A stretch of 64,000 nt of DNA, taken from NCBI RefSeq assembly GCF_000756815.1, contig NZ_CCVW01000002.1, positions 238,157 to 302,156 on the forward strand, read 5' to 3'. Shown in pieces: positions 3,658-58,852 of this stretch. The position numbers and the translations under genes are program-made. Source of the DNA: Legionella massiliensis. Its GTDB lineage: Bacteria > Pseudomonadota > Gammaproteobacteria > Legionellales > Legionellaceae. A model generated the notes under the pieces. That model had not been told where the DNA came from. It made no database searches and saw only the letters and a list, made by a program, of their open reading frames with translations. The first letter of the stretch is position 1. Each line of letters starts with the position of its first letter.

Positions 3658-3771
3658 TGGATTCCCCTAGGAGACGACAGTTAAACTTCGCGATAATAGC
3701 AGAGGCCCATCTAATTAGCACGATTCTTTGTAGGAGACAAAAAATAGAAAATCCTCTAATTTGCTCCTAAT

Positions 3772-4045
3772 CCCCGCGGCTTGACCCATAGGTATCTATA
3801 CAAGTGTCTGTAATAGATGAGCTCTGTCCCCCTAAGGCACGTCATCCAGAGCACAGCGAAGGATCTCCTGAATGTGGCACGGTGCTAATCCCGGAGATCC
3901 TTCGCTGCGCTCTGGATGACGTAGTGTTGAAACAAGGAAGGACGTGACCTTATTACAAACACTTGTGTAGATACCTATGGGCTTGACCGCGGGGTCTATC
4001 AAGCTTTCACTACTCCCGAGGTCAAGCCGCGGGAATTCGAGTTTT
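3772..4045. repeat. Composite nested palindromic element: a type A hairpin at 3840-3920, inside a ~30-bp inverted repeat (cccataggtatctatacaagtgtctgtaat / attacaaacacttgtgtagatacctatggg), inside D-like gcggcttgaccc arms
   Basis: Read directly. Near-identical to the copy at 40793-41025. Confidence 0.85.
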
Positions 4046-5125: not shown

Positions 5126-5142
5126 AGCAAGGAGTGTTATCG

Positions 5143-6324
5143 ATGAAAAAATCCATGCTGTATGCAGGATTAATGACTATTTTAAGTGCAACAGCGTATG
5201 CCGAAGATAGTAACAACCTCAATACTATACAAACAAATCCTGGAGCTACTAATGCTGTGCAATTAGCCATGCAACAGGGAGTACAACTAGCATCTTCTGA
5301 TGCAGTGCAAACACCCGCTAATAGCACTGTCAAAACACCTGCTAACTCTGAAACACAGCCCGCAGCAGTCAGTACACCAACTTCCGCCACCGGCGCAGCA
5401 CCAACCCCGGCTTTGGATACCTCAACAGCACCAGCAGCACCAGCAGCGACAGGTGCGACTACGACACCAGCGACGGGGGATGTTACAACGCCAGCGGCAG
5501 GTGCTGCTACGACACCAGCAGCAGGTACTGCTACGACACCAGCGGCAGGTGCTGCTACGACACCAGCGGCAGGTGCTGCTACGACACCAGCGGCAGGTGC
5601 TGCTACGACACCAGCGGCAGGTGCTGCTACGGCACCGGCAGCAGGTGCGACTACGACACCGGCAGCAGGTGCGACTACGACACCGGCAGCAGGTGCGACT
5701 TCGACACCGGCAGCAGGTGCGACTACGACACCGGCAGCAGGTGCGACTACGACACCGGCAGCAGGTGCGACTTCGACACCAGAAGCAGGTACGACTACAA
5801 CACCAGCAGCAATCAAGCCAGCCCAACCCTTGGATTGTAGCTACCGTATTCCGCCAGAAACTTCGCATATCGAACAAACTATTGTGATGAAATGGGCTGA
5901 GAAGGCTGCAGAGCAATCCTTTGATTTTGACTTCAACAACCTTGATAAACAAATTTCCCTATTAAAGTCTTGTTATACTGAGCAGGGATGGCAAGGTTTT
6001 AATGATGCCTTACAAAAATCAGGAAACATCAATGCCATTAAAACTCAGCAACTTACTGTAAGTTCGATGGTAAATGGGGAAGGCAAAATTACTGAGCTCA
6101 AAGATAACCAATGGAAAATTGCTATCCCAATGCAGGTGGTTTACCAAAATGATAAGGAAAAATTAACTCAACCGCTAACCATCAATCTGATTGTTGGACG
6201 CAAAGTCTCTGGCGACTTAGGTATTATGCAAATGATTGCTATACCTCGCCAACCAATGACCAATGCAGCTGGTGGTGAGAACCCTCAAGAGACAACTACC
6301 ACAACGACTACACAGAAGCCCTAA
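5143..6324 (+). CDS. Secreted protein with a Thr/Pro/Ala-rich tandem-repeat linker and a C-terminal IcmL/DotI-like domain
   Basis: ATG at 5143 lies 9 nt after an AAGGAG ribosome-binding site. The ORF track starts at a GTG at 5134 that overlaps that site. Signal peptide MKKSMLYAGLMTILSATAYA. About 15 copies of TTPAAGA(A/T) are encoded by 24-bp tandem repeats at 5449-5810. The C-terminal ~170 aa (GWQGFNDALQKSGNINAIK...WKIAIPMQVVY...LTINLIVGRKV...LGIMQMIAIP) match my recollection of the IcmL/DotI periplasmic domain pattern. Confidence 0.6.
   Translation: MKKSMLYAGLMTILSATAYAEDSNNLNTIQTNPGATNAVQLAMQQGVQLASSDAVQTPANSTVKTPANSETQPAAVSTPTSATGAAPTPALDTSTAPAAPAATGATTTPATGDVTTPAAGAATTPAAGTATTPAAGAATTPAAGAATTPAAGAATTPAAGAATAPAAGATTTPAAGATTTPAAGATSTPAAGATTTPAAGATTTPAAGATSTPEAGTTTTPAAIKPAQPLDCSYRIPPETSHIEQTIVMKWAEKAAEQSFDFDFNNLDKQISLLKSCYTEQGWQGFNDALQKSGNINAIKTQQLTVSSMVNGEGKITELKDNQWKIAIPMQVVYQNDKEKLTQPLTINLIVGRKVSGDLGIMQMIAIPRQPMTNAAGGENPQETTTTTTTQKP
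5449..5810 (+). repeat. Perfect 24-bp tandem repeat array, ~15 units, in two sub-families
   Basis: Repeated units gctacgacaccagcggcaggtgct and gcgactacgacaccggcagcaggt, read directly. This array produces the artefactual overlapping ORFs at 4959-5816(-), 5300-5887(+) and 5422-5952(-). Confidence 0.9.
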
Positions 6325-6415: not shown

Positions 6416-6441
6416 TAAATGTAAGATCAAGTCTCCCACCC

Positions 6442-6515
6442 CGTCATCCTGAGCGCAGCGAAGGATCTCCGGGATTAGCACAGTTGCTACACTCAGGAGA
6501 TCCTTCGCTGCGCTC
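6442..6515. repeat. Type A palindromic mini-element (cgtcatcctgagcgcagcgaaggatctcc...ggagatccttcgctgcgctc)
   Basis: About 75-86-bp near-perfect hairpin. Copies at 3840-3920, 6442-6515, 15168-15238, 19597-19681, 28075-28147, 33234-33306, 40867-40948 and 42340-42421. Confidence 0.85.
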
Positions 6516-6659
6516 CCAAAGACGTACGTCATGTCGAACGTAGAGAGACATCTCCTGAGTGTAGCAACTGTGCTAATCCCGGAGATCCCTCACTATGTTC
6601 GGGATAACGAGGTTTTTATGGATGTTTGCCCAAAAGGGGCTGGGGCGCTCAGGATGACG
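6515..6659 (+). repeat. Type B mini-element (~131-145 bp; cccaaagacgtacgtcatgtcgaacgtagagagacatctcc...tttgccccaatggggctggggcgctc), fused to the preceding type A
   Basis: Consensus shared with 15238-15790 (x4), 16758-16900(-), 27911-28074(-), 30725-30872(-), 33095-33233(-) and 58710-58852(+). Confidence 0.85.
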
Positions 6660-6718
6660 TGCTATGTTAGGGTGACGGGGCTGACCTATTACGGATAAAT
6701 AGAAGATTACAAACCCAT

Positions 6719-8727: not shown

Positions 8728-10401
8728 TCAATCTTTCAAACGACGATACTTAATTCGTGAAGGCTTGTCGGCCTCATCCCCTAAACGCCGCTTTCTATCT
8801 GCTTCATAATCGCTGTAATTGCCCTCAACAAACACGACTTGGGAATCCCCTTCAAAAGCCATTAGATGGGTGCAAACTCGATCGAGGAACCAGCGATCAT
8901 GGGAGATAACAATAGCGCAGCCAGGGAAATTGAGGATCGCATCTTCCAAGGCTCTTAGGGTTTCGACATCAAGGTCATTACTAGGTTCGTCGAGTAACAA
9001 CACATTGCCGCCACGTTTGAGTAATTTAGCTAGATGTACACGATTGCGCTCACCGCCCGATAATTGCGACATTTTTTTCTGCTGATCCGCGCCCTTAAAA
9101 TTGAAGCGGCCAACGTAGGCTCTGGATGGCATTTGGAAAGAACCAACCTGCATAATGTCATGACCATCAGCAATTTCTTGCCAAACCGTTTTATTATCAT
9201 CTAAATGGTCACGCAACTGATCGACATAAGCCAGATTTACTGTTTCACCAATACGAATTTCACCGCTATCGGGGCTTTCCTGACCAGTAATCATTTTTAA
9301 GAAGGTCGATTTACCTGCGCCATTGGGACCGATAATTCCAAGTATCCCAGCTTTAGGTAATTGGAAGTTTAAATTTTCAAATAAGAGGCGATCACCGAAG
9401 GATTTGCTAATTTGCAGGCCTTCGAGAACCAAATCACCAAGTCGCTCACCCGGCGGAATATAGAGCTCATTGGTTTCATTACGTTTTTGAAATTCTTTTG
9501 AATTCATTTCATCAAAACGAGCAAGTCTTGCCTTGTTCTTAGCATGACGTCCCTTCGGTGAAGTGCGAACCCACTCCAACTCTGCCTTGATAGCACGTTG
9601 GTGGGAAGCCTGTTGTTTGTCTTCCATCGCCAGGCGCTCTTCTTTTTGCTCGAGCCAGGAGGTGTAGTTTCCTTTATAAGGAATACCCTCACCGCGATCG
9701 AGCTCCAGAATCCACTCAGCAGCATTATCCAGAAAATAGCGATCGTGGGTAATAGCAACCACTGTTCCGGCGAACTCTTCAAGATAACGCTCAAGCCAGG
9801 CAACACTTTCTGCATCGAGATGGTTAGTTGGCTCATCGAGTAACAACATATCTGGGCTTGACAAGAGTAAACGACAGAGAGCGACTCGGCGGCGTTCTCC
9901 TCCCGATAAATTTTGGATTTTTGCATCCCATTCTGGCAAGCGAAGCGCATCTGCTGCAATATCCAAACGACGATCGAGATCCCAGCCACCATGGGTTTCA
10001 ATATCATTCTGCAGTTCGCCTTGCTTCATCAATAAGTCATTCATTTCATCATCACTCATTGGCTCTGCAAAACGCATGCTAATTTCGTCGAAGGCAACGA
10101 GTTTGGCTTTAATCTCTTTAACACCCTCTTCAACGATTTCACGAACAGTCTTGTCCATATCAAGCTGAGGCTCTTGCTCCAGATAGCCAATTTTAATACC
10201 TGGTTGCGGTCTCGCCTCGCCCTCATGTTGGGTATCTACACCTGCCATGATCCGCAGTAAAGTCGATTTTCCTGACCCATTTAAACCCAGAACCCCAATC
10301 TTGGCACCTGGAAAAAAACTCAGGGAAATATCTTTTAATATAAAGCGTTGATTATCAACCACCTTAGAAACGCGGTTCATAGTAAAAATGTATTGGGACA
10401 T
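8728..10401 (-). CDS. ettA: Energy-dependent translational throttle protein EttA (ABC-F ATPase)
   Basis: 557 aa, collinear with E. coli EttA (MSQYIFTMNRVSKVV...KDISLSFFPGAKIGVLGLNGSGKSTLLRIMAG). Two ABC cassettes, each with Walker A/B and LSGGE signature motifs. Confidence 0.9.
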   Translation of the reverse strand: MSQYIFTMNRVSKVVDNQRFILKDISLSFFPGAKIGVLGLNGSGKSTLLRIMAGVDTQHEGEARPQPGIKIGYLEQEPQLDMDKTVREIVEEGVKEIKAKLVAFDEISMRFAEPMSDDEMNDLLMKQGELQNDIETHGGWDLDRRLDIAADALRLPEWDAKIQNLSGGERRRVALCRLLLSSPDMLLLDEPTNHLDAESVAWLERYLEEFAGTVVAITHDRYFLDNAAEWILELDRGEGIPYKGNYTSWLEQKEERLAMEDKQQASHQRAIKAELEWVRTSPKGRHAKNKARLARFDEMNSKEFQKRNETNELYIPPGERLGDLVLEGLQISKSFGDRLLFENLNFQLPKAGILGIIGPNGAGKSTFLKMITGQESPDSGEIRIGETVNLAYVDQLRDHLDDNKTVWQEIADGHDIMQVGSFQMPSRAYVGRFNFKGADQQKKMSQLSGGERNRVHLAKLLKRGGNVLLLDEPSNDLDVETLRALEDAILNFPGCAIVISHDRWFLDRVCTHLMAFEGDSQVVFVEGNYSDYEADRKRRLGDEADKPSRIKYRRLKD

Positions 10402-13705: not shown

Positions 13706-15121
13706 ATGAAAAAAACGTTCTTATGCTTGCTGTTCGGTCTTGGTGTACCTGCCTTGTCGTTCGCAACAGACCTGATGGATATCTACCAGCAAGCGTTGGA
13801 GAACGATCCTATTTTTAAGCAAGCCTATAGCACTTACATGTCTAATACCGAAGCAGTGCCTATAGCTCGTGCTGCCTTATATCCTCAGTTGACTATCAAT
13901 GCCTTAGCTGCACGGAATGTTCAGGATGTTGCGGCATCCACTAGCAGATTAGCGACTACCTACAATTCAAACCAATGGCAGGTCAATGCTTCGCAGGCCT
14001 TATTTAACTATAAGGCCTGGGCCCAAGTGCAACGCGCCAAAGCTTCAGTTAAAGCAGCACAAGCCAGTTTTAATGATTCAGCACAAAATCTGATTTTACG
14101 CACTGCCAGCGCCTATTTTCAGGTGCTATTGGCTAAAGATACTTTGAATTTTGCTGAAGCAAAAAAGCGGGCGAACAAACGCCAGTTTGATCAGGCAGAA
14201 CAACGTTTCAAAGTGGGTTTGGATGCTATTACCTCCGTTTATGAAGCGAAAGCAGCTTATGACCAATCCGTTGCCCAGGTGATTTCGGCAAGAAATAATC
14301 AGATCAATCAAAATGAGAATTTACGTAAATTAACTAACCATGTTTACGAGCATTTATCGCCACTTAGAGACAGCCGTATTCCCTTAGTCAAACCTGAGCC
14401 TGACAATATTAATGAATGGGTGAATACCGGATTAAAGCAAAACTATAAACTTTATGCCGCCAAATATGGCCTAGAAGCGGCGCGTGAAACCATTAAAGCA
14501 CAATCTTCTGGTGCCTGGCCGACCTTTGCCCTGCAAGGGAATAGCACAACAACCCATATTCAATCGGATGTCTCAGCGTCAAATTCGGCTTCCTTTTTTG
14601 TTCCCTCACGCCAAAGTACATCTAATGTAGCTATTGCTATGAATTTTCCTGTTTTTCAGGGTGGTCTTGTGCAAGCTCAAACCAGACAGGCGCAATATAA
14701 TTTTCAAACAACTAGCGAGCAATTAGAGCAAACCTATCGCGATGTTGAGGTCAACAGCCGTATTGCTTTCAATACAATTATCGATGGTATCAGCAAGGTA
14801 AAAGCAGATAAGCAAACGATTATTTCTCAGCAAAATTCGCTTGAAAGCACCGAAGCCCAGTTTCAGGTGGGTACTCGTACGATGGTTGATGTTGTCAATG
14901 CCCAGCAACGGCTTTTCGAAGCGCAAGAACAACTTGCCAGCGATCAATACGACTTGATTAATTCCATTTTAAATTTAAAATACCTCGCCGGCACTTTGAA
15001 TGTGACTGATCTTGAAGAAATTAATGCCTGGCTGCAAACAACCCGTATTGCCAACTTCCCTCCTGAAACCTCAGCAGTTTCTGCTAAGCGTATTGCTGTT
15101 CGTAAAAAGCAAGGTAAGTAG
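13706..15121 (+). CDS. tolC: TolC-family outer-membrane efflux/secretion channel
   Basis: Start taken at ATG 13706 (MKKTFLCLLFGLGVPALSFA signal peptide). Two repeated OEP halves. Start of the mature protein DLMDIYQQALENDPIFKQA matches the typical TolC N-terminus. Confidence 0.8.
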   Translation: MKKTFLCLLFGLGVPALSFATDLMDIYQQALENDPIFKQAYSTYMSNTEAVPIARAALYPQLTINALAARNVQDVAASTSRLATTYNSNQWQVNASQALFNYKAWAQVQRAKASVKAAQASFNDSAQNLILRTASAYFQVLLAKDTLNFAEAKKRANKRQFDQAEQRFKVGLDAITSVYEAKAAYDQSVAQVISARNNQINQNENLRKLTNHVYEHLSPLRDSRIPLVKPEPDNINEWVNTGLKQNYKLYAAKYGLEAARETIKAQSSGAWPTFALQGNSTTTHIQSDVSASNSASFFVPSRQSTSNVAIAMNFPVFQGGLVQAQTRQAQYNFQTTSEQLEQTYRDVEVNSRIAFNTIIDGISKVKADKQTIISQQNSLESTEAQFQVGTRTMVDVVNAQQRLFEAQEQLASDQYDLINSILNLKYLAGTLNVTDLEEINAWLQTTRIANFPPETSAVSAKRIAVRKKQGK

Positions 15122-15167
15122 TGATACAATTGAGTCCAAGTTTGTAAGTAATAGGGCACTCCCCTTC

Positions 15168-15238
15168 CGTCATCCTGAGCGTAGCGAAGAGCTCCTGAAT
15201 GTGACAGAGTGCTAACCCCGGAGATCCTTCGCTACGCT
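15168..15238. repeat. Type A palindromic mini-element
   Basis: Immediately followed by the type B tandem array. Confidence 0.8.
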
Positions 15239-15790
15239 CCCAAAGGCGTACGTCATGTCGAACGTAGAGAGACATCTCCTGAATATGGCAGATGCTAGTC
15301 CCGGAGATCCCCCACTACGTTCGGGATGACGGGATCTTTATCGATGTTTGCCCCAATGGGGCTGGGGCGCTCCCAAAGGCGTACGTCATGTCGAACATAG
15401 AGAGACATCTCCTGAATGTGGCAGATGCTAGTCCCGGAGATCCCCCACTAAGTTCGGGATGACGGGATCTTTATCGATGTTTGCCCCAATGGGGCTGAGG
15501 CGCTCCCAAAGGCGTACGTCATGTCGAACGTAGAGAGGCATCTCCTGAATGTGGCAGATGTTAGTCCCGGAGATCCCTCACTACGTTCGGGATGACAGGG
15601 TCTTTATCGATGTTTGCCCCAATGGGGCTGAGGCGCTCCCAAAGGCGTACGTCATGTCGAACGTAGTGAGACATCTCCTGAATATGGCAGATGCTAGTCC
15701 CGGAGATCCCCCACTATGTTCGGGATGACGGGATCTTTATCGATGTTTGCCCCTAAGGGGCTAGGACACTCTGGATGACGTGCTATGTTA
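15238..15790 (+). repeat. Tandem array of about 4.2 type B units with a ~132-bp period, filling the tolC-ttcA intergenic region
   Basis: Unit starts (ctcccaaaggcgtacgtcatg) at about 15238, 15371, 15503 and 15635. Units are 90-95% identical to each other. The array ends with ...ggctaggacactctggatgacg. Confidence 0.9.
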
Positions 15791-15833
15791 GGGTAATTAC
15801 AGTTCCATTTCATATTTAATTTAGGTTTTTATT

Positions 15834-16679
15834 ATGTCTACAAACCCCACTATTGTTGAAAAAAAATTATTACATTACACCGGCAAAGCCATTTCTGATT
15901 TTAATATGATTCAGCGTGGTGATCGGGTGATGGTGTGTCTATCTGGCGGTAAAGATTCTTTTAGTTTGCTTACCCTATTGCATACCCTACGTCGCCGCTC
16001 AAATAATAAATTTGATATTTTTGCTTTTACCCTTGATCAGGCGCAACCCGGTTGGGATGATAGTAAATTACGTGCCTGGCTCGATGAGAAAGCTATTCCT
16101 CATGAGATCTTAACTCGAGATACCTATTCCATCGTTAAAGAGAAAATTCCAGAAGGCAAAACGTATTGCTCGCTCTGTTCGCGTCTAAGACGAGGTATTA
16201 TCTATCGCTACGCAGAAGAAAATGGCTTCACAAAAATTGCCCTGGGGCACCATCGCGATGATTTAATACGCACCTTAATGATGTCTATTTTGTATAACGG
16301 GGATATCCGTTCGATGCCGCCTAAGCTATTAAGCGACAATAAGAAACACATCGTTATACGTCCCTTATGTTATGTTCAGGAACGAGACATTATTAAATTT
16401 GCTGAAGAACAGGCTTATCCGATCATTCCCTGTACTCTATGTGGTTCCCAGGAGAACCTTGCGCGCAAACGGATTGGTAAATTAATCGATCAACTTGCCG
16501 AAGAAAATCCTAAGGTTCCGTCCAATATTCTACATGCTTTGCAAAGCATCAAGCCGAGCCAATTGATGGACCAGGATCTATGGCAGTTTAAAAATCTTGA
16601 AAGCCAACTGCTCAATCCAATGCTGGATAATGGAGAATCTGTCATTGGTGAGGAAGAGCTGGAAGTTATTGAAGACTAG
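15834..16679 (+). CDS. ttcA: tRNA 2-thiocytidine(32) synthetase
   Basis: 281 aa. PP-loop motif CLSGGKDS. Cys motifs [10 protein letters not shown] and CTLCGSQ. Family-typical length. Confidence 0.85.
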
Positions 16680-16757
16680 CTTTGAGATCCCGCGGTCAAG
16701 CCGTGGGATTTCGGAACGATTAGGACTGTAGATTATTCTCATCACCTTCACATAGCC

Positions 16758-16900
16758 CCTCACCCTGAGCGCCCCAGCCCCTTTTGGGCAAACATCGATA
16801 AAGACCCCGTCATCCCGAACATAGTGAGGGATCTCCGGGACTAGCATCTGCCACATTCAGGAGATGTCTCTCTGCGTTCGACATGACGTACGTCTTTGGG
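16758..16900 (-). repeat. Type B mini-element in reverse orientation, plus a D-like half-site at 16681-16705
   Basis: Reverse complement of the B consensus (gagcgccccagcccc...caaacatcgataaagacccc...cgtctttggg). Confidence 0.8.
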
Positions 16901-16946
16901 AGCACAACGAAGAATCTCCCAGGTGCTCTTCCTTATATATCATCGA

Positions 16947-17035
16947 ATCCCCTTAACTGCCTTATCCCCTCAGGAGCGAAGGGAAAAAGCGGGGGTTCTC
17001 CCTTCCACGGGACGGATGAGAGCTCCTAAAACTGC
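16947..17035. repeat. Type H-related GC-rich hairpin element (cccctcaggagcgaagggaaaaagcggggg...ttccacgggacggatgag)
   Basis: Related to 54667-54773 and 50897-50945. Confidence 0.55.
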
Positions 17036-17248
17036 CTCACCTTGAAGTTAGGCTTGCCCAAACACATGGGTCTCGCAATCAATCCAGTTTTATACAATAA
17101 TATTTACACTCTGAATAATTGCTTTACACCTTGGCCCGTATGGATTTACATAAAAGTTAAGAAATATTTCTTTCTTGTAAAGATTCACAAAGTATTTAAC
17201 CTGGGTTACTATTGCTTCACCTCTAGCCGTTGCAAAAAAAAAATCATC

Positions 17249-30679: not shown

Positions 30680-30724
30680 GTAATTACCTGGCGTACCCTA
30701 CCATGCTGGGCAGTCACTCCCCTT

Positions 30725-30872
30725 CCGTCATTCTGAGCGCCCCAGACCCTTTGGGGGGCAAACATCGATAAAGACCTCGTCATCCCGAACATAGTGAGGG
30801 ATCTCCGGGATTAGCACAGTGCCACATTCAGGAGATGTCTCTCTACGTTCGACATGACGTACGTCTTTGGGA
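30725..30872 (-). repeat. Type B mini-element, reverse orientation
   Basis: ccgtcattctgagcgccccagaccctttggggggcaaacatcgataaagacctcgtcatcccgaacatagtgagggatctccggg...cgtctttggg. Confidence 0.85.
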
Positions 30873-30953
30873 GCGATAGGAACCATTTATTTTTGATTTT
30901 ATAAATTTTTTATCATAAATTGATTACTCGCATCTCAGATATAAGAAGTAGTT

Positions 30954-33094: not shown

Positions 33095-33306
33095 CGTCAC
33101 GTCATCCTGAGCGCTCCAGCCCCTTTGGGGCAAACATCGATAAAGACCTCGTCATCCCAGGGATCTCTGGGATTAGCACAGCGCTACACTTAGGAGATGT
33201 CTCTCTACGTTCGACATGACGTACGTCTTTGGGAGTGCAGCGAAGGATTTCTTGAATATAGCACAGTGCCAATCCTGGAGATCCTTCGCTGCGCTCAGGA
33301 TGACGG
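33095..33306 (-). repeat. Type B (reverse orientation, internally deleted) fused to type A (33234-33306)
   Basis: Read directly. The B copy lacks ~25 bp relative to the consensus. Confidence 0.8.
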
Positions 33307-33354
33307 GCTATGTTAGAGTGACGAGGTGACCTATTACCTACTTTCTAAGATCCC

Positions 33355-35545: not shown

Positions 35546-35584
35546 TTTTTTCATTATAACTAAGGTCAGCCTCCGCTCTACTAT

Positions 35585-35672
35585 TGAATTCCCGCAGCTT
35601 GACCGTAGGATCCGCTGGTTATAAGCTCTTCACTCTGAGCCCGATCCCTCGGTCAAGCCGCGGGAATTCGGG
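35585..35672. repeat. Type D element, plus a shared ttcactctgagccc module
   Basis: gaattcccgcagcttgaccg...cggtcaagccgcgggaattcg. The ttcactctgagccc module also occurs next to the A copy at 19575. Confidence 0.8.
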
Positions 35673-58695: not shown

Positions 58696-58709
58696 TTTGT
58701 TGTTCCTAC

Positions 58710-58852
58710 TCCCAAAGACGTACGTCATGTCGAACGTAGAGAGACATCTCCTGAATGTGGCACTGTGCTAATCCCGGAGATCCCTCACTATGTTCGGGAT
58801 GACGAGGTCTTTATCGATGTTTACCTAAAAGGGGCTGGGACGCTCAGGATGA
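58710..58852 (+). repeat. Type B mini-element, forward orientation
   Basis: cccaaagacgtacgtcatgtcgaacgtagagagacatctcctgaatgtggcactgtgctaatcccggagatccctcactatgttcgggatgacg...gggctgggacgctcaggatgac. Confidence 0.85.

What the first reader, a model, noticed from the sequence alone, without database searches (positions are those of the whole stretch)
15168..15790. Four-unit head-to-tail tandem array of the type B element fills the whole tolC-ttcA intergenic region
Mini-palindromes normally insert singly. Here ~4.2 units of 132 bp follow an A copy without spacers. Units are 90-95% identical, with unit-specific SNPs such as gaatatggcag versus gaatgtggcag. This points to amplification by unequal recombination or rolling-circle-like duplication. 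The result is ~620 bp of highly structured RNA if transcribed from the tolC side. Such an array could be a recombination hotspot, a strain-typing VNTR, or a processed source of repeat-derived small RNAs.
Basis: seen in the sequence. Interest (0 to 1): 0.6.

Follow-up and report, generated by a model that had tools for sequence, protein, structure and literature searches.

The report
Four-copy amplified palindromic repeat cluster
Between the tolC and ttcA genes of Legionella massiliensis lies one mosaic palindromic repeat element whose 133-bp inner module has been duplicated in place to four copies; this is real, but it is an ordinary kind of repeat cluster already known from Pseudomonas REPINs, E. 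coli BIMEs and pneumococcal BOX elements.

Summary
The array is real. Tandem Repeats Finder gives 15235-15762, period 133, 4.0 copies, 94% matches. The window comes from Legionella massiliensis. The array is not a string of separate insertions. It is one composite element with terminal inverted repeats at 15168-15181 and 15767-15780. Its inner "B" module is a hairpin plus a 51-nt tail, and this module is present four times. Each unit starts at a CGCTC (CACTC at the array's end). Elsewhere in the window the same composite carries 0 B modules (4 loci) or 1 (4 loci). The four array units share derived bases and split from six dispersed B copies (NJ bootstrap 0.93), which supports amplification in place. 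About 45 Legionellaceae relatives keep tolC-ttcA adjacent, mostly with spacers of roughly 10-100 bp. The excess here is the element itself. Each hairpin arm is a small REP-like stem-loop (CGTC, 5-bp stem, 11-nt loop, 5-bp stem), and the stem is kept by compensatory changes. The hairpins are therefore REP doublets. I found no promoter-like or terminator-like site, no Rfam match, no orientation bias and no long ORF. Copy number in other strains could not be tested. Tandem REPIN clusters, BIMEs and BOX boxB arrays are close precedents. Verdict: a new member of a known kind, of low interest.

The parts
13706..15121 (+). tolC (outer-membrane channel), the upstream flanking gene
   Evidence: TIGR01844 328.6 bits, above its cutoff of 225; Pfam OEP
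15157..15167 (+). Left terminal extension CACTCCCCTTC, shared with the end of the B-only copy near 30715-30726
   Evidence: Sequence comparison of element ends
15168..15181 (+). Left terminal inverted repeat, which is also the outer left arm of the A hairpin (CGTCATCCTGAGCG)
   Evidence: Complementary in 12 of 14 positions to 15767-15780. The RNA fold of the whole spacer closes this outer stem
15182..15234 (+). Inner hairpin of the A module: arms 15182-15195 and 15220-15234, loop 15196-15219. Slightly degenerate, with a 1-nt deletion in the left arm
   Evidence: 86% identity to the A-only copy at 3840-3921; alignment
15235..15367 (+). B unit 1. It comprises CGCTCCCAAAGGCG + TA, a hairpin at 15251-15331, a tail, and a mini-hairpin GCCCCAATGGGGC at 15350-15362
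   Evidence: RNA fold -52.2 kcal/mol
15368..15500 (+). B unit 2 (hairpin 15384-15464, mini-hairpin 15483-15495)
   Evidence: 129/133 identical to unit 1
15501..15633 (+). B unit 3 (hairpin 15517-15597, mini-hairpin 15616-15628)
   Evidence: 126/133 identical to unit 1
15634..15766 (+). B unit 4 (hairpin 15650-15730, mini-hairpin 15749-15761). Its tail keeps the ancestral-type ..AAGGGGCT.. sequence
   Evidence: 127/133 identical to unit 1
15767..15780 (+). Right terminal inverted repeat CACTCTGGATGACG, the partner of 15168-15181
   Evidence: The same terminus (CGCTCAGGATGACG) ends the single-B composites at 6438-6660 and, in reverse orientation, 27932-28146 and 33100-33305
15781..15797 (+). Right terminal extension TGCTATGTTAGGGTAAT, shared with 6660-6680 and 33306-33326
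   Evidence: the repeat finder family D14
15834..16679 (+). ttcA (tRNA 2-thiocytidine synthetase), the downstream flanking gene
   Evidence: NF007972 407.5 bits, above its cutoff of 272. 100% identical to the L. massiliensis TtcA, P0001
16742..16925 (-). Single B module in inverted orientation just downstream of ttcA. Among the dispersed B copies in the window it is the closest relative of the array units
   Evidence: Inverted repeat I2, 163 nt, 89%; 92.6-93.3% identity to the array units

Best explanation
One mosaic palindromic repeat element inserted into the short tolC-ttcA spacer in the lineage of Legionella massiliensis. Its layout is: left terminal repeat, A hairpin, B module, right terminal repeat. 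The B module is a 133-bp segment bounded on both sides by the pentanucleotide CGCTC. It was first duplicated by slippage or illegitimate recombination between these two short direct repeats. It was then expanded to four copies by unequal homologous exchange or replication slippage between the 133-bp units. The same process run backwards removes B and leaves the plain 82-nt A palindrome. The building blocks are REP-like units: CGTC, a 5-bp stem, an 11-nt loop containing GTAG/GCAG/ATAG, the return 5-bp stem, then CTCC. They are arranged head to head as doublets, which is the REPIN architecture. The cluster most likely has no selected function of its own. Relatives have almost no spacer, so ttcA is probably co-transcribed with tolC (inferred, not shown). 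If so, the array sits inside that transcript as about 640 nt of hairpins. These could incidentally stabilise the tolC 3' end or lower ttcA expression. Shown: the anatomy, amplification in place, lineage-specific insertion, and conservation of the intra-arm stem. Inferred: the slippage mechanism, co-transcription, and neutrality.
For: The array and its exact 133-bp register are shown. CGCTC (CACTC at the 3' end) lies at every unit boundary, at 15235, 15368, 15501, 15634 and 15767. In single-B composites the same pentamer flanks B, and A-only copies read ...GCGCTC|TGGATGACG, which is exactly the composite minus B. In the window the B-module count per locus is 0 at four loci (3840, 19598, 40867, 42340), 1 at four composites plus two B-only copies, and 4 here. 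The array units share derived bases absent from all six dispersed copies and form a split with NJ bootstrap 0.93. tolC-ttcA adjacency is conserved in about 45 Legionellaceae loci, mostly with spacers of roughly 10-100 bp and only a few longer ones up to about 390 bp. The non-repeat remainder here, about 70-76 bp, matches the 75-94 bp spacers of L085 and L005. The intra-arm 5-bp stem is paired in 90% of cells. Four of its 5 pairs show changes on both sides, with 17 compensated cells against 5.4 +/- 1.7 in shuffles (0/500 reach this). Slid controls pair in only 11-45% of cells. The long arm-to-arm hairpin is paired in 88% of cells, but it is broken in B exactly where the intra-arm stems covary. 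The 82-nt hairpin family occurs at other loci in L. maceachernii, L. shakespearei, L. steelei, L. rowbothamii and several Legionella/Tatlockia MAGs. Signs of a dedicated function are absent. There is no Rfam match. There are no terminator-like sites in the scanned region and no promoter-like site on the + strand in the array. B folds equally well on both strands, -52.2 versus -55.6 kcal/mol. B is sense at 3 loci and antisense at 3 loci relative to upstream genes. The period of 133 is not a multiple of 3, and the longest ORF in the spacer is 64 codons.
Against: Only 64 kb of one draft genome could be examined, so the 0/1/4 distribution rests on 11 loci. The units differ by 3-10%, so the array is not freshly homogenised and its current dynamics are unknown. 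The covariation derives from only about three ancestral arm types that were then copied many times, so it represents few independent events. Because the CGCTC boundary is ambiguous over 5-6 nt, slippage and site-specific insertion predict the same junctions. Co-transcription and neutrality are inferences with no expression data behind them. Copy number could be affected by the short-read assembly.
Confidence: 0.78

Rival explanations
1. Serial site-specific insertion. The 133-nt B unit is a mobile single-strand-type element, mobilised by an IS200/IS605-like or RAYT-like enzyme, that inserts 3' of CGCTC. Because the unit itself ends in CGCTC, each insertion recreates the target, so B units pile up head to tail inside the right arm of an A element.
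For: Every junction is ...CGCTC|CCAAAG... and the composite equals an A element with B inserted between CGCTC and AGGATGACG. No target-site duplication is visible around the copies inspected, as expected for that transposase class. The conserved small hairpins in the arms are the kind of structure such enzymes recognise. Two B-only copies are 99-100% identical across the hairpin.
Against: The four array units share derived bases not seen in any dispersed B copy and cluster together with bootstrap 0.93, which points to copying in place. B-only copies carry the AGGATGAC terminus beyond CGCTC, so the unit they represent is not the 133-nt unit this model requires. No transposase gene was found among 40 ORFs of the window. 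CGTC-type REPs have no known dedicated transposase (PMC3733652).
Confidence: 0.1
2. Selected regulatory RNA or DNA structure. Under this reading, the array is maintained because its hairpins attenuate or process the tolC-ttcA transcript, stabilise tolC mRNA, yield small RNAs, or bind nucleoid proteins or gyrase. Copy number would then tune ttcA expression.
For: The 712-nt spacer folds well below shuffled controls, -281 versus -239 +/- 7 kcal/mol, z = -5.9. Relatives have spacers too short for an independent ttcA promoter, so the array is probably transcribed. REP/BIME and BOX elements have reported effects on mRNA stability and on expression of neighbouring genes (PMC3733652; PMC3049150). Coxiella QMITEs give rise to sRNAs (PMC5896051).
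Against: The strong fold follows automatically from the palindromes and is equal on both strands. B modules occur in both orientations relative to their neighbours. There are no terminator-like sites, no promoter-like site on the + strand within the array, and no Rfam match. The array is absent from all 45+ related tolC-ttcA loci, so it is not a conserved regulatory feature. Several unit SNPs weaken hairpin pairing, for example A-A in unit 2 and A.C in units 1, 2 and 4.
Confidence: 0.1
3. The copy number is an assembly artefact. The locus truly holds a composite element, but the number of B units was inflated or mis-ordered by short-read assembly, scaffolding and gap filling.
For: The genome is a draft built from 454 and 2x250 MiSeq reads with SPAdes, SSPACE, Opera, GapFiller and manual refinement (PMC4200166). 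Independent short-read (Logan) contigs of the same strain break inside the repeats at 15186 and 15724.
Against: The register is exactly 133 bp with no indels. Each of the four units has private substitutions, so at least four distinct units must exist in the reads. A 532-bp array is within reach of 454 reads and 5-kb mate pairs.
Confidence: 0.05

Closest known systems
Tandem REPIN clusters of Pseudomonas fluorescens SBW25 (Bertels & Rainey 2011, PMC3116915)
   Same: Both are hairpin-forming doublets of inverted REP units repeated head to tail together with their flanking sequence. The largest SBW25 cluster has four REPINs and spans more than 700 bp. Here there are four doublets plus one A doublet in about 640 bp. 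Both are extragenic, and in both the REP-level small hairpin is conserved.
   Different: The terminal tag here is CGTC, and the GTAG-like motif lies in the loop of the small hairpin instead of at the REP 5' end. The arms are 29 nt and the spacer about 24 nt. No RAYT gene could be linked to the family. The cluster is nested inside a larger element with its own terminal inverted repeats.
Pneumococcal BOX elements (boxA-boxB(n)-boxC; PMC3049150, PMC1315331)
   Same: Both are modular mosaic repeats in which only the middle module is tandemly reiterated, from 0 to many copies, while the end modules pair with each other. Length variation in BOX is attributed to slipped-strand mispairing or unequal crossover. 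boxB arrays with 83-98% internal identity serve as VNTR typing markers.
   Different: The sequences and phyla are unrelated. boxB is 45 bp, whereas the unit here is 133 bp and contains a long hairpin. Polymorphism between strains is shown for BOX and not tested here.
E. coli BIMEs, which are REP clusters (established knowledge; summarised in PMC3733652)
   Same: Both are mosaics of inverted REPs and linker motifs repeated in tandem between genes of an operon or at 3' ends. [quoted passage not shown]
   Different: BIME REPs are about 35-40 nt GTAG-type units with defined linker motifs and known IHF, gyrase and Pol I interactions. None of this was shown here.
CGTC-tagged REP super-family (Di Nocera et al. 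2013, PMC3733652)
   Same: Both have a terminal CGTC, a stem that begins with AT, predominantly head-to-head dimers, and no associated transposase.
   Different: The published CGTC families have 8-9 bp stems, 4-5 nt loops and a CCA tail. Here the stem is 5 bp, the loop 11 nt and the tail CTCC. Legionella was not among the species surveyed in that paper.
Coxiella burnetii QMITE2 / GTAG REP (Wachter et al. 2018, PMC5896051)
   Same: Both come from the order Legionellales. Both occur as a short REP-like palindrome (about 80-100 nt) and a longer version (150-190 nt) with TIRs. Both lie mainly in 3' UTRs and intergenic DNA and form very stable predicted hairpins.
   Different: No QMITE2 sequence was available for comparison, so homology is untested. 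QMITE2 full-length copies have 7-11 bp direct repeats, which were not seen here. No tandem arrays are reported in that paper ('tandem' occurs 0 times).

Membership tests
REP doublet (REPIN) and REPIN cluster | Two short REP palindromes in inverted orientation, separated by a short spacer, forming one long hairpin | tested here: met
   Arms of 29 nt, each with its own 5-bp stem (90% paired, 4 of 5 pairs compensated). The arm-to-arm hairpin is 88% paired. Folds of -52 to -64 kcal/mol.
REP doublet (REPIN) and REPIN cluster | Ordered clusters, meaning tandem repeats of near-identical doublets including their flanking sequence | tested here: met
   Four units of 133 bp, each a hairpin plus 51 nt of flank, 90-97% identical.
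REP doublet (REPIN) and REPIN cluster | Conserved GTAG at the 5' end of each REP | tested here: inconclusive
   GTAG/GCAG/ATAG is present in every arm, but inside the 11-nt loop of the small hairpin. The terminal tetranucleotide is CGTC.
REP doublet (REPIN) and REPIN cluster | A cognate single-copy RAYT (Y1 transposase) gene flanked by the repeats | not testable with these tools
   Only 64 kb of the 4.39-Mb genome is available. No transposase domain was found in 40 ORFs. The NCBI contig could not be fetched.
CGTC-tagged REPs (PMC3733652) | Terminal CGTC motif; head-to-head dimers | tested here: met
   All arms start with CGTC (a few with CGTT or TGTC) and are arranged head to head.
CGTC-tagged REPs (PMC3733652) | Stem of 8-9 bp, loop of 4-5 nt, CCA tail | tested here: not met
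   The stem is 5 bp, the loop 11 nt and the tail CTCC; the family definition is quoted.
BOX-type modular repeat | End modules that pair, and a middle module present in 0 to n tandem copies | tested here: met
   Terminal repeats 15168-15181 and 15767-15780 pair. B count per locus is 0, 1 or 4. This is a resemblance in architecture only.
BOX-type modular repeat | Sequence homology to boxA, boxB and boxC | not tested
   No BOX sequences were compared. No Rfam family matched. I do not claim membership.
MITE | Terminal inverted repeats | tested here: met
   CGTCATCCTGAGCG and CACTCTGGATGACG are complementary in 12 of 14 positions.
MITE | Target-site duplication flanking each copy | tested here: not met
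   No direct repeats flank the copies at 3840, 6438, 15168, 19598, 30726, 40867, 42340 or 58705.
MITE | A related autonomous IS with the same TIRs | not testable with these tools
VNTR (polymorphic minisatellite) | Unit number differs between strains | not testable with these tools
   The exact TtcA and TolC proteins occur only on short Logan contigs that end inside the repeats. A second strain exists (SRR34718041, 7 mismatches in 1022 nt) but its contig starts at 15772.
Coxiella QMITE2 | Sequence similarity to the CbsR16/QMITE2 consensus | not tested
   The paper and the supplements held contain no sequence.

The most novel reading that the evidence does not exclude
The Legionella elements may be a still-active REPIN-like population of the CGTC-tagged class, for which no mobilising enzyme is known. 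On this reading, the small stem-loop in each arm, kept by compensatory change, is the recognition hairpin of an unidentified single-strand (HUH/Y1-type or other) transposase. Tandem clusters such as this one would be by-products of that enzyme acting at the CGCTC junction rather than of passive slippage. L. massiliensis would then offer a way to find the missing transposase of CGTC repeats.
Probability: 0.12. Interest if true: 0.55.

Novelty: new member of a known kind. Interest (0 to 1): 0.24.

Why it matters
On its own the finding matters little. It documents that Legionella massiliensis carries a modular family of REP-doublet repeats, seen at 11 loci in this 64-kb window. The 82-nt A-type hairpin of this family also occurs in several other Legionella and Tatlockia genomes. 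The inner module of the family can be amplified in place, as in REPIN clusters, BIMEs and BOX elements. There are three practical consequences. First, the locus is a candidate VNTR marker for L. massiliensis, and it is a place where short-read assemblies break. Second, about 640 bp of hairpins has been inserted into what is otherwise a tight tolC-ttcA gene pair, and ttcA is bracketed by inverted B copies. This could affect ttcA expression or allow the gene to be inverted. Third, the family combines a CGTC end tag with a GTAG-like loop motif and shows arm-internal covariation. That may interest people who study how REP-type repeats are mobilised. I found no paper describing this family in Legionella.

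Tried and rejected
1. Coding repeat: rejected. The period of 133 is not a multiple of 3, stops occur in all six frames, and the longest ORF is 64 codons.

2. Known RNA family: rejected. There is no Rfam hit at gathering threshold in the whole window, and only a chance Histone3 hit (E = 0.96) in a relaxed search of 15050-17050.

3. Intrinsic terminator or internal promoter: none was found in the array. The promoter-like site at 14954-14981 lies in a coding motif of tolC that is conserved across relatives, so it cannot be judged either way.

4. Other arrays in public data: none were found. Scans of JGI metagenome contigs for the B-B junction and for the B core gave 0 hits.

5. Copy number in other strains: not obtainable. 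Look-ups of the exact TtcA, TolC and two array ORFs gave only short Logan contigs that end in the repeats, or nothing.

6. Closer relatives: P0002, P0011 and P0070 (TtcA 90% identical) were fetched. None carries the element, and nucleotide identity of L085 to the window is only about 70-80%.

7. Homology to Coxiella QMITE2: untestable, because no sequence is given in the paper or the supplements held.

8. L. pneumophila MLVA markers Lpms33 and Lpms34: these came from my memory of about 125-bp units. One paper reports a 634-bp Lpms34 allele with four repeats. No sequence was available, so any relation to this family remains only a lead.

9. Strand-specific RNA selection: rejected. Both strands fold equally well and orientation relative to neighbouring genes is mixed.

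Full report
**Observation.** The region 14800-16100 was read directly. Tandem Repeats Finder reports a single large-period array at 15235-15762: period 133, 4.0 copies, 94% matches, no indels, score 958. The repeat finder gives copies at 15235, 15368, 15501 and 15634, spaced exactly 133 bp. Pairwise unit identity is 120-129 of 133, or 90-97%. The quoted SNP is correct: GAATATGGCAG in units 1 and 4, GAATGTGGCAG in units 2 and 3.

**Flanking genes and organism.** The upstream ORF (13706-15121) matches TolC (TIGR01844, 328.6 bits, cutoff 225). The downstream ORF (15834-16679) matches TtcA (NF007972, 407.5 bits, cutoff 272). The TtcA protein is 100% identical to that of Legionella massiliensis (P0001). 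That genome is an 8-contig draft built from 454 and MiSeq reads with gap filling and manual refinement (PMC4200166). This is a caveat for any exact repeat count, although every unit carries private substitutions.

**Anatomy of the composite element.** Printing the array in register next to the other copies in the window shows one composite element.
- It starts with a left terminal repeat, CGTCATCCTGAGCG (15168-15181).
- An A-type inner hairpin follows (15182-15234).
- Four units follow (15235-15766). Each unit consists of CGCTCCCAAAGGCG, then TA, then an 81-nt B hairpin, a tail (GGATCTTTATCGATGTTT) and a mini-hairpin GCCCCAATGGGGC.
- It ends with a right terminal repeat, CACTCTGGATGACG (15767-15780). 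This repeat pairs with the left terminus and not with the arm next to it. The RNA fold of the whole spacer closes this outer stem.
- Short terminal extensions (15157-15167 and 15781-15797) are also shared with other copies.

The element is GC-rich, 54.6% against 44% for the window.

**Copies elsewhere in the window.** The same family occurs at 11 intergenic loci in 64 kb.
- Four loci hold only the 82-nt A palindrome: 3840, 19598, 40867 and 42340.
- Four loci hold a composite with one B: 6438, 16742 (partly truncated), 27932 and 33100.
- Two loci hold B alone: 30726 and 58705.
- This locus holds a composite with four B units.

**Origin of the array.** Every unit boundary is the pentanucleotide CGCTC (CACTC at the 3' end). 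In single-B composites B is flanked by the same pentamer. The A-only element reads ...GCGCTC|TGGATGACG, which is exactly the composite minus the segment between the two CGCTC copies. This is the pattern expected if slippage or illegitimate recombination between two short direct repeats 133 bp apart first duplicated (or deleted) the module, and unequal exchange between units then expanded it. The four array units share derived bases absent from all six dispersed B copies (AAAG[G]CG; also GGGATC and CCCCAATGGGG in three of the four). They form a split with NJ bootstrap 0.93. This supports amplification in place over repeated independent insertions. The nearest dispersed relative is the inverted copy just downstream of ttcA (about 93% identical).

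**Comparative context.** A scan of GTDB species genomes with TtcA returned 80 loci. In about 45 Legionellaceae loci tolC directly precedes ttcA. The apparent spacers are mostly 10-100 bp, with a few up to about 390 bp, and a TTTAGGTT..ATG motif before ttcA is conserved. None of these loci carries the array. A metagenomic contig whose gene order matches the part of the window it spans (L085) has a 75-bp spacer. The non-repeat remainder of the spacer here, about 70-76 bp, matches that length, so the whole excess is the element. One Tatlockia MAG (L022) has a single related palindrome in the same spacer in the opposite orientation.

An nhmmer profile of the 82-nt hairpin finds the family at other loci in L. 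maceachernii, L. shakespearei, L. steelei, L. rowbothamii and several MAGs. The B junction and the B core gave no hit in JGI metagenomes. Tandem duplications of other CGTC-type palindromes occur sporadically in the fetched Legionellales loci: L050 (116 bp x 1.9), L037 (94 bp x 2.7) and L064 (207 bp x 2.2).

**The building blocks.** Each 29-nt arm has the form CGTC, 5 nt, 11 nt, 5 nt, CTCC, and the two 5-mers are complementary. There are three arm types: ATCCT/AGGAT in A, ATGTC/GACAT in the B left arm, and ATCCC/GGGAT in the B right arm. On 26 distinct arms from the window and from relatives, this stem is paired in 90% of cells. Four of its 5 pairs show changes on both sides, with 17 compensated cells against 5.4 +/- 1.7 in shuffles (0/500 reach this). 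Slid controls reach only 11-45% pairing.

The long arm-to-arm hairpin is also supported, at 88% paired. In all B copies, however, it is broken at exactly the positions that stay paired within each arm. The hairpins are therefore head-to-head doublets of small REP-like stem-loops, which is the REPIN architecture. One caveat applies: the covariation reflects a few ancestral arm types that were copied many times.

**Function.**
- No Rfam family matches.
- No terminator-like site was found, and no promoter-like site on the + strand lies within the array.
- The B unit folds equally well on both strands, -52.2 versus -55.6 kcal/mol.
- B is sense at three loci and antisense at three relative to the upstream gene.
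- The period is not a multiple of three, and no ORF exceeds 64 codons.
- Several unit SNPs weaken pairing.
- No transposase domain occurs in 40 ORFs of the window.

The strong fold of the spacer (-281 versus -239 +/- 7 kcal/mol) follows from the palindromes and is not in itself evidence of function. Because relatives leave no room for a separate ttcA promoter, I infer that the array is transcribed within a tolC-ttcA message. There it could incidentally stabilise the tolC 3' end or dampen ttcA expression. This step is inferred, not shown.

[quoted passage not shown] The largest has four REPINs and spans more than 700 bp (PMC3116915). [quoted passage not shown] Pneumococcal BOX elements are boxA-boxB(n)-boxC mosaics. 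Their boxB number varies by slippage or unequal crossover and is used for MLVA typing (PMC3049150, PMC1315331).

The present element works like these. It meets the architectural criteria for a REP-doublet cluster. It does not meet the published stem and loop dimensions of the CGTC families. It shows no target-site duplication, as a classical MITE would. It could not be tested for a cognate RAYT gene or for homology to Coxiella QMITE2. I found no paper describing this family in Legionella.

**What could not be done.** Copy number in other strains is untested. The only other sequences of this locus are short Logan contigs that end inside the repeats. L083 ends at 15186 and L001 starts at 15724, and both are identical to the window. 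L002 comes from a second strain (7 mismatches in 1022 nt) and starts at 15772. The full L. massiliensis genome could not be fetched.

**Verdict.** This is a genuine, lineage-specific, four-fold in-place amplification of the inner module of a mosaic REP-doublet element. It is a new member of a known kind. Interest is low to modest, and it rests mainly on a possible VNTR marker and on the uncharacterised CGTC-type repeat family in Legionella.

Noticed in passing
window 5450-5811 (within ORF 5134-6324): A 24-bp in-frame tandem repeat of about 15 copies (89% matches) lies inside an IcmL/DotI-like type IVB secretion protein (Pfam T4BSS_DotI_IcmL; the NCBIfam match is below its cutoff). This is a possible intragenic VNTR in a Dot/Icm-related gene.
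   Followed up: partly
window 3769-4027 and 40794-41027: Two copies (about 92% identical) of a larger palindromic element of about 230-260 bp. An A-type hairpin sits exactly at its centre, and its termini resemble the ATTCCCGCGG...CCGCGGGAAT short palindromes. This shows that the repeat families nest within each other.
   Followed up: partly
window 15635-15797 versus 16741-16903: ttcA is bracketed by inverted B copies (163 nt, 89% complementary, 943 bp apart). Homologous recombination between them could invert the gene relative to tolC.
   Followed up: no
window 4008-4040, 16682-16714, 23527-23558, 35582-35671, 48837-48917: A second family of short palindromes, ATTCCCGCGGCTTGACCGCGGGAT(C), often occurs as inverted pairs. 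From memory, it resembles the Neisseria dRS3 consensus ATTCCC-N8-GGGAAT, which Di Nocera et al. class as CGTC-1.
   Followed up: no
window 42154-42315 and 48583-48759: A third repeat of about 160-175 nt (88-95% identical) ends in the same mini-hairpin TTTGCCCCAAAGGGGCTGGG that forms the tail of the B module. Modules are therefore shared between families.
   Followed up: no
window 23616-27902: A 1428-aa ORF has no Pfam or NCBIfam match. A gene of similar size (1565 aa) occupies the same position in the syntenic metagenome contig L085. It may be a Legionella effector.
   Followed up: no
L050 10859-11079; L037 3872-4128; L064 15782-16222: Other Legionellales and Gammaproteobacteria loci also contain tandemly duplicated palindromic repeats: 116 bp x 1.9 directly after ttcA (L050), 94 bp x 2.7 (L037) and 207 bp x 2.2 (L064). 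Small tandem clusters of such elements therefore recur in the group.
   Followed up: partly
L022 about 9860-9980 (Tatlockia sp. MAG): A single related palindrome (GTCATCCTAATACAGTGAGGGATC...GGGATAACGG) sits in the same tolC-ttcA spacer but in the opposite orientation. This may be an independent insertion into the same spacer.
   Followed up: partly
L002 (SRR34718041), mapping to window 15772-16793: A second L. massiliensis-like strain (7 mismatches in 1022 nt) carries the same right end of the element upstream of ttcA. Its raw reads could settle whether unit number varies.
   Followed up: partly
window 30757-30873 versus 58709-58825: Two B-only copies 28 kb apart are 99-100% identical over the hairpin, but they diverge in their tails and flanks. 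This suggests recent gene conversion or copying of the hairpin core.
   Followed up: partly
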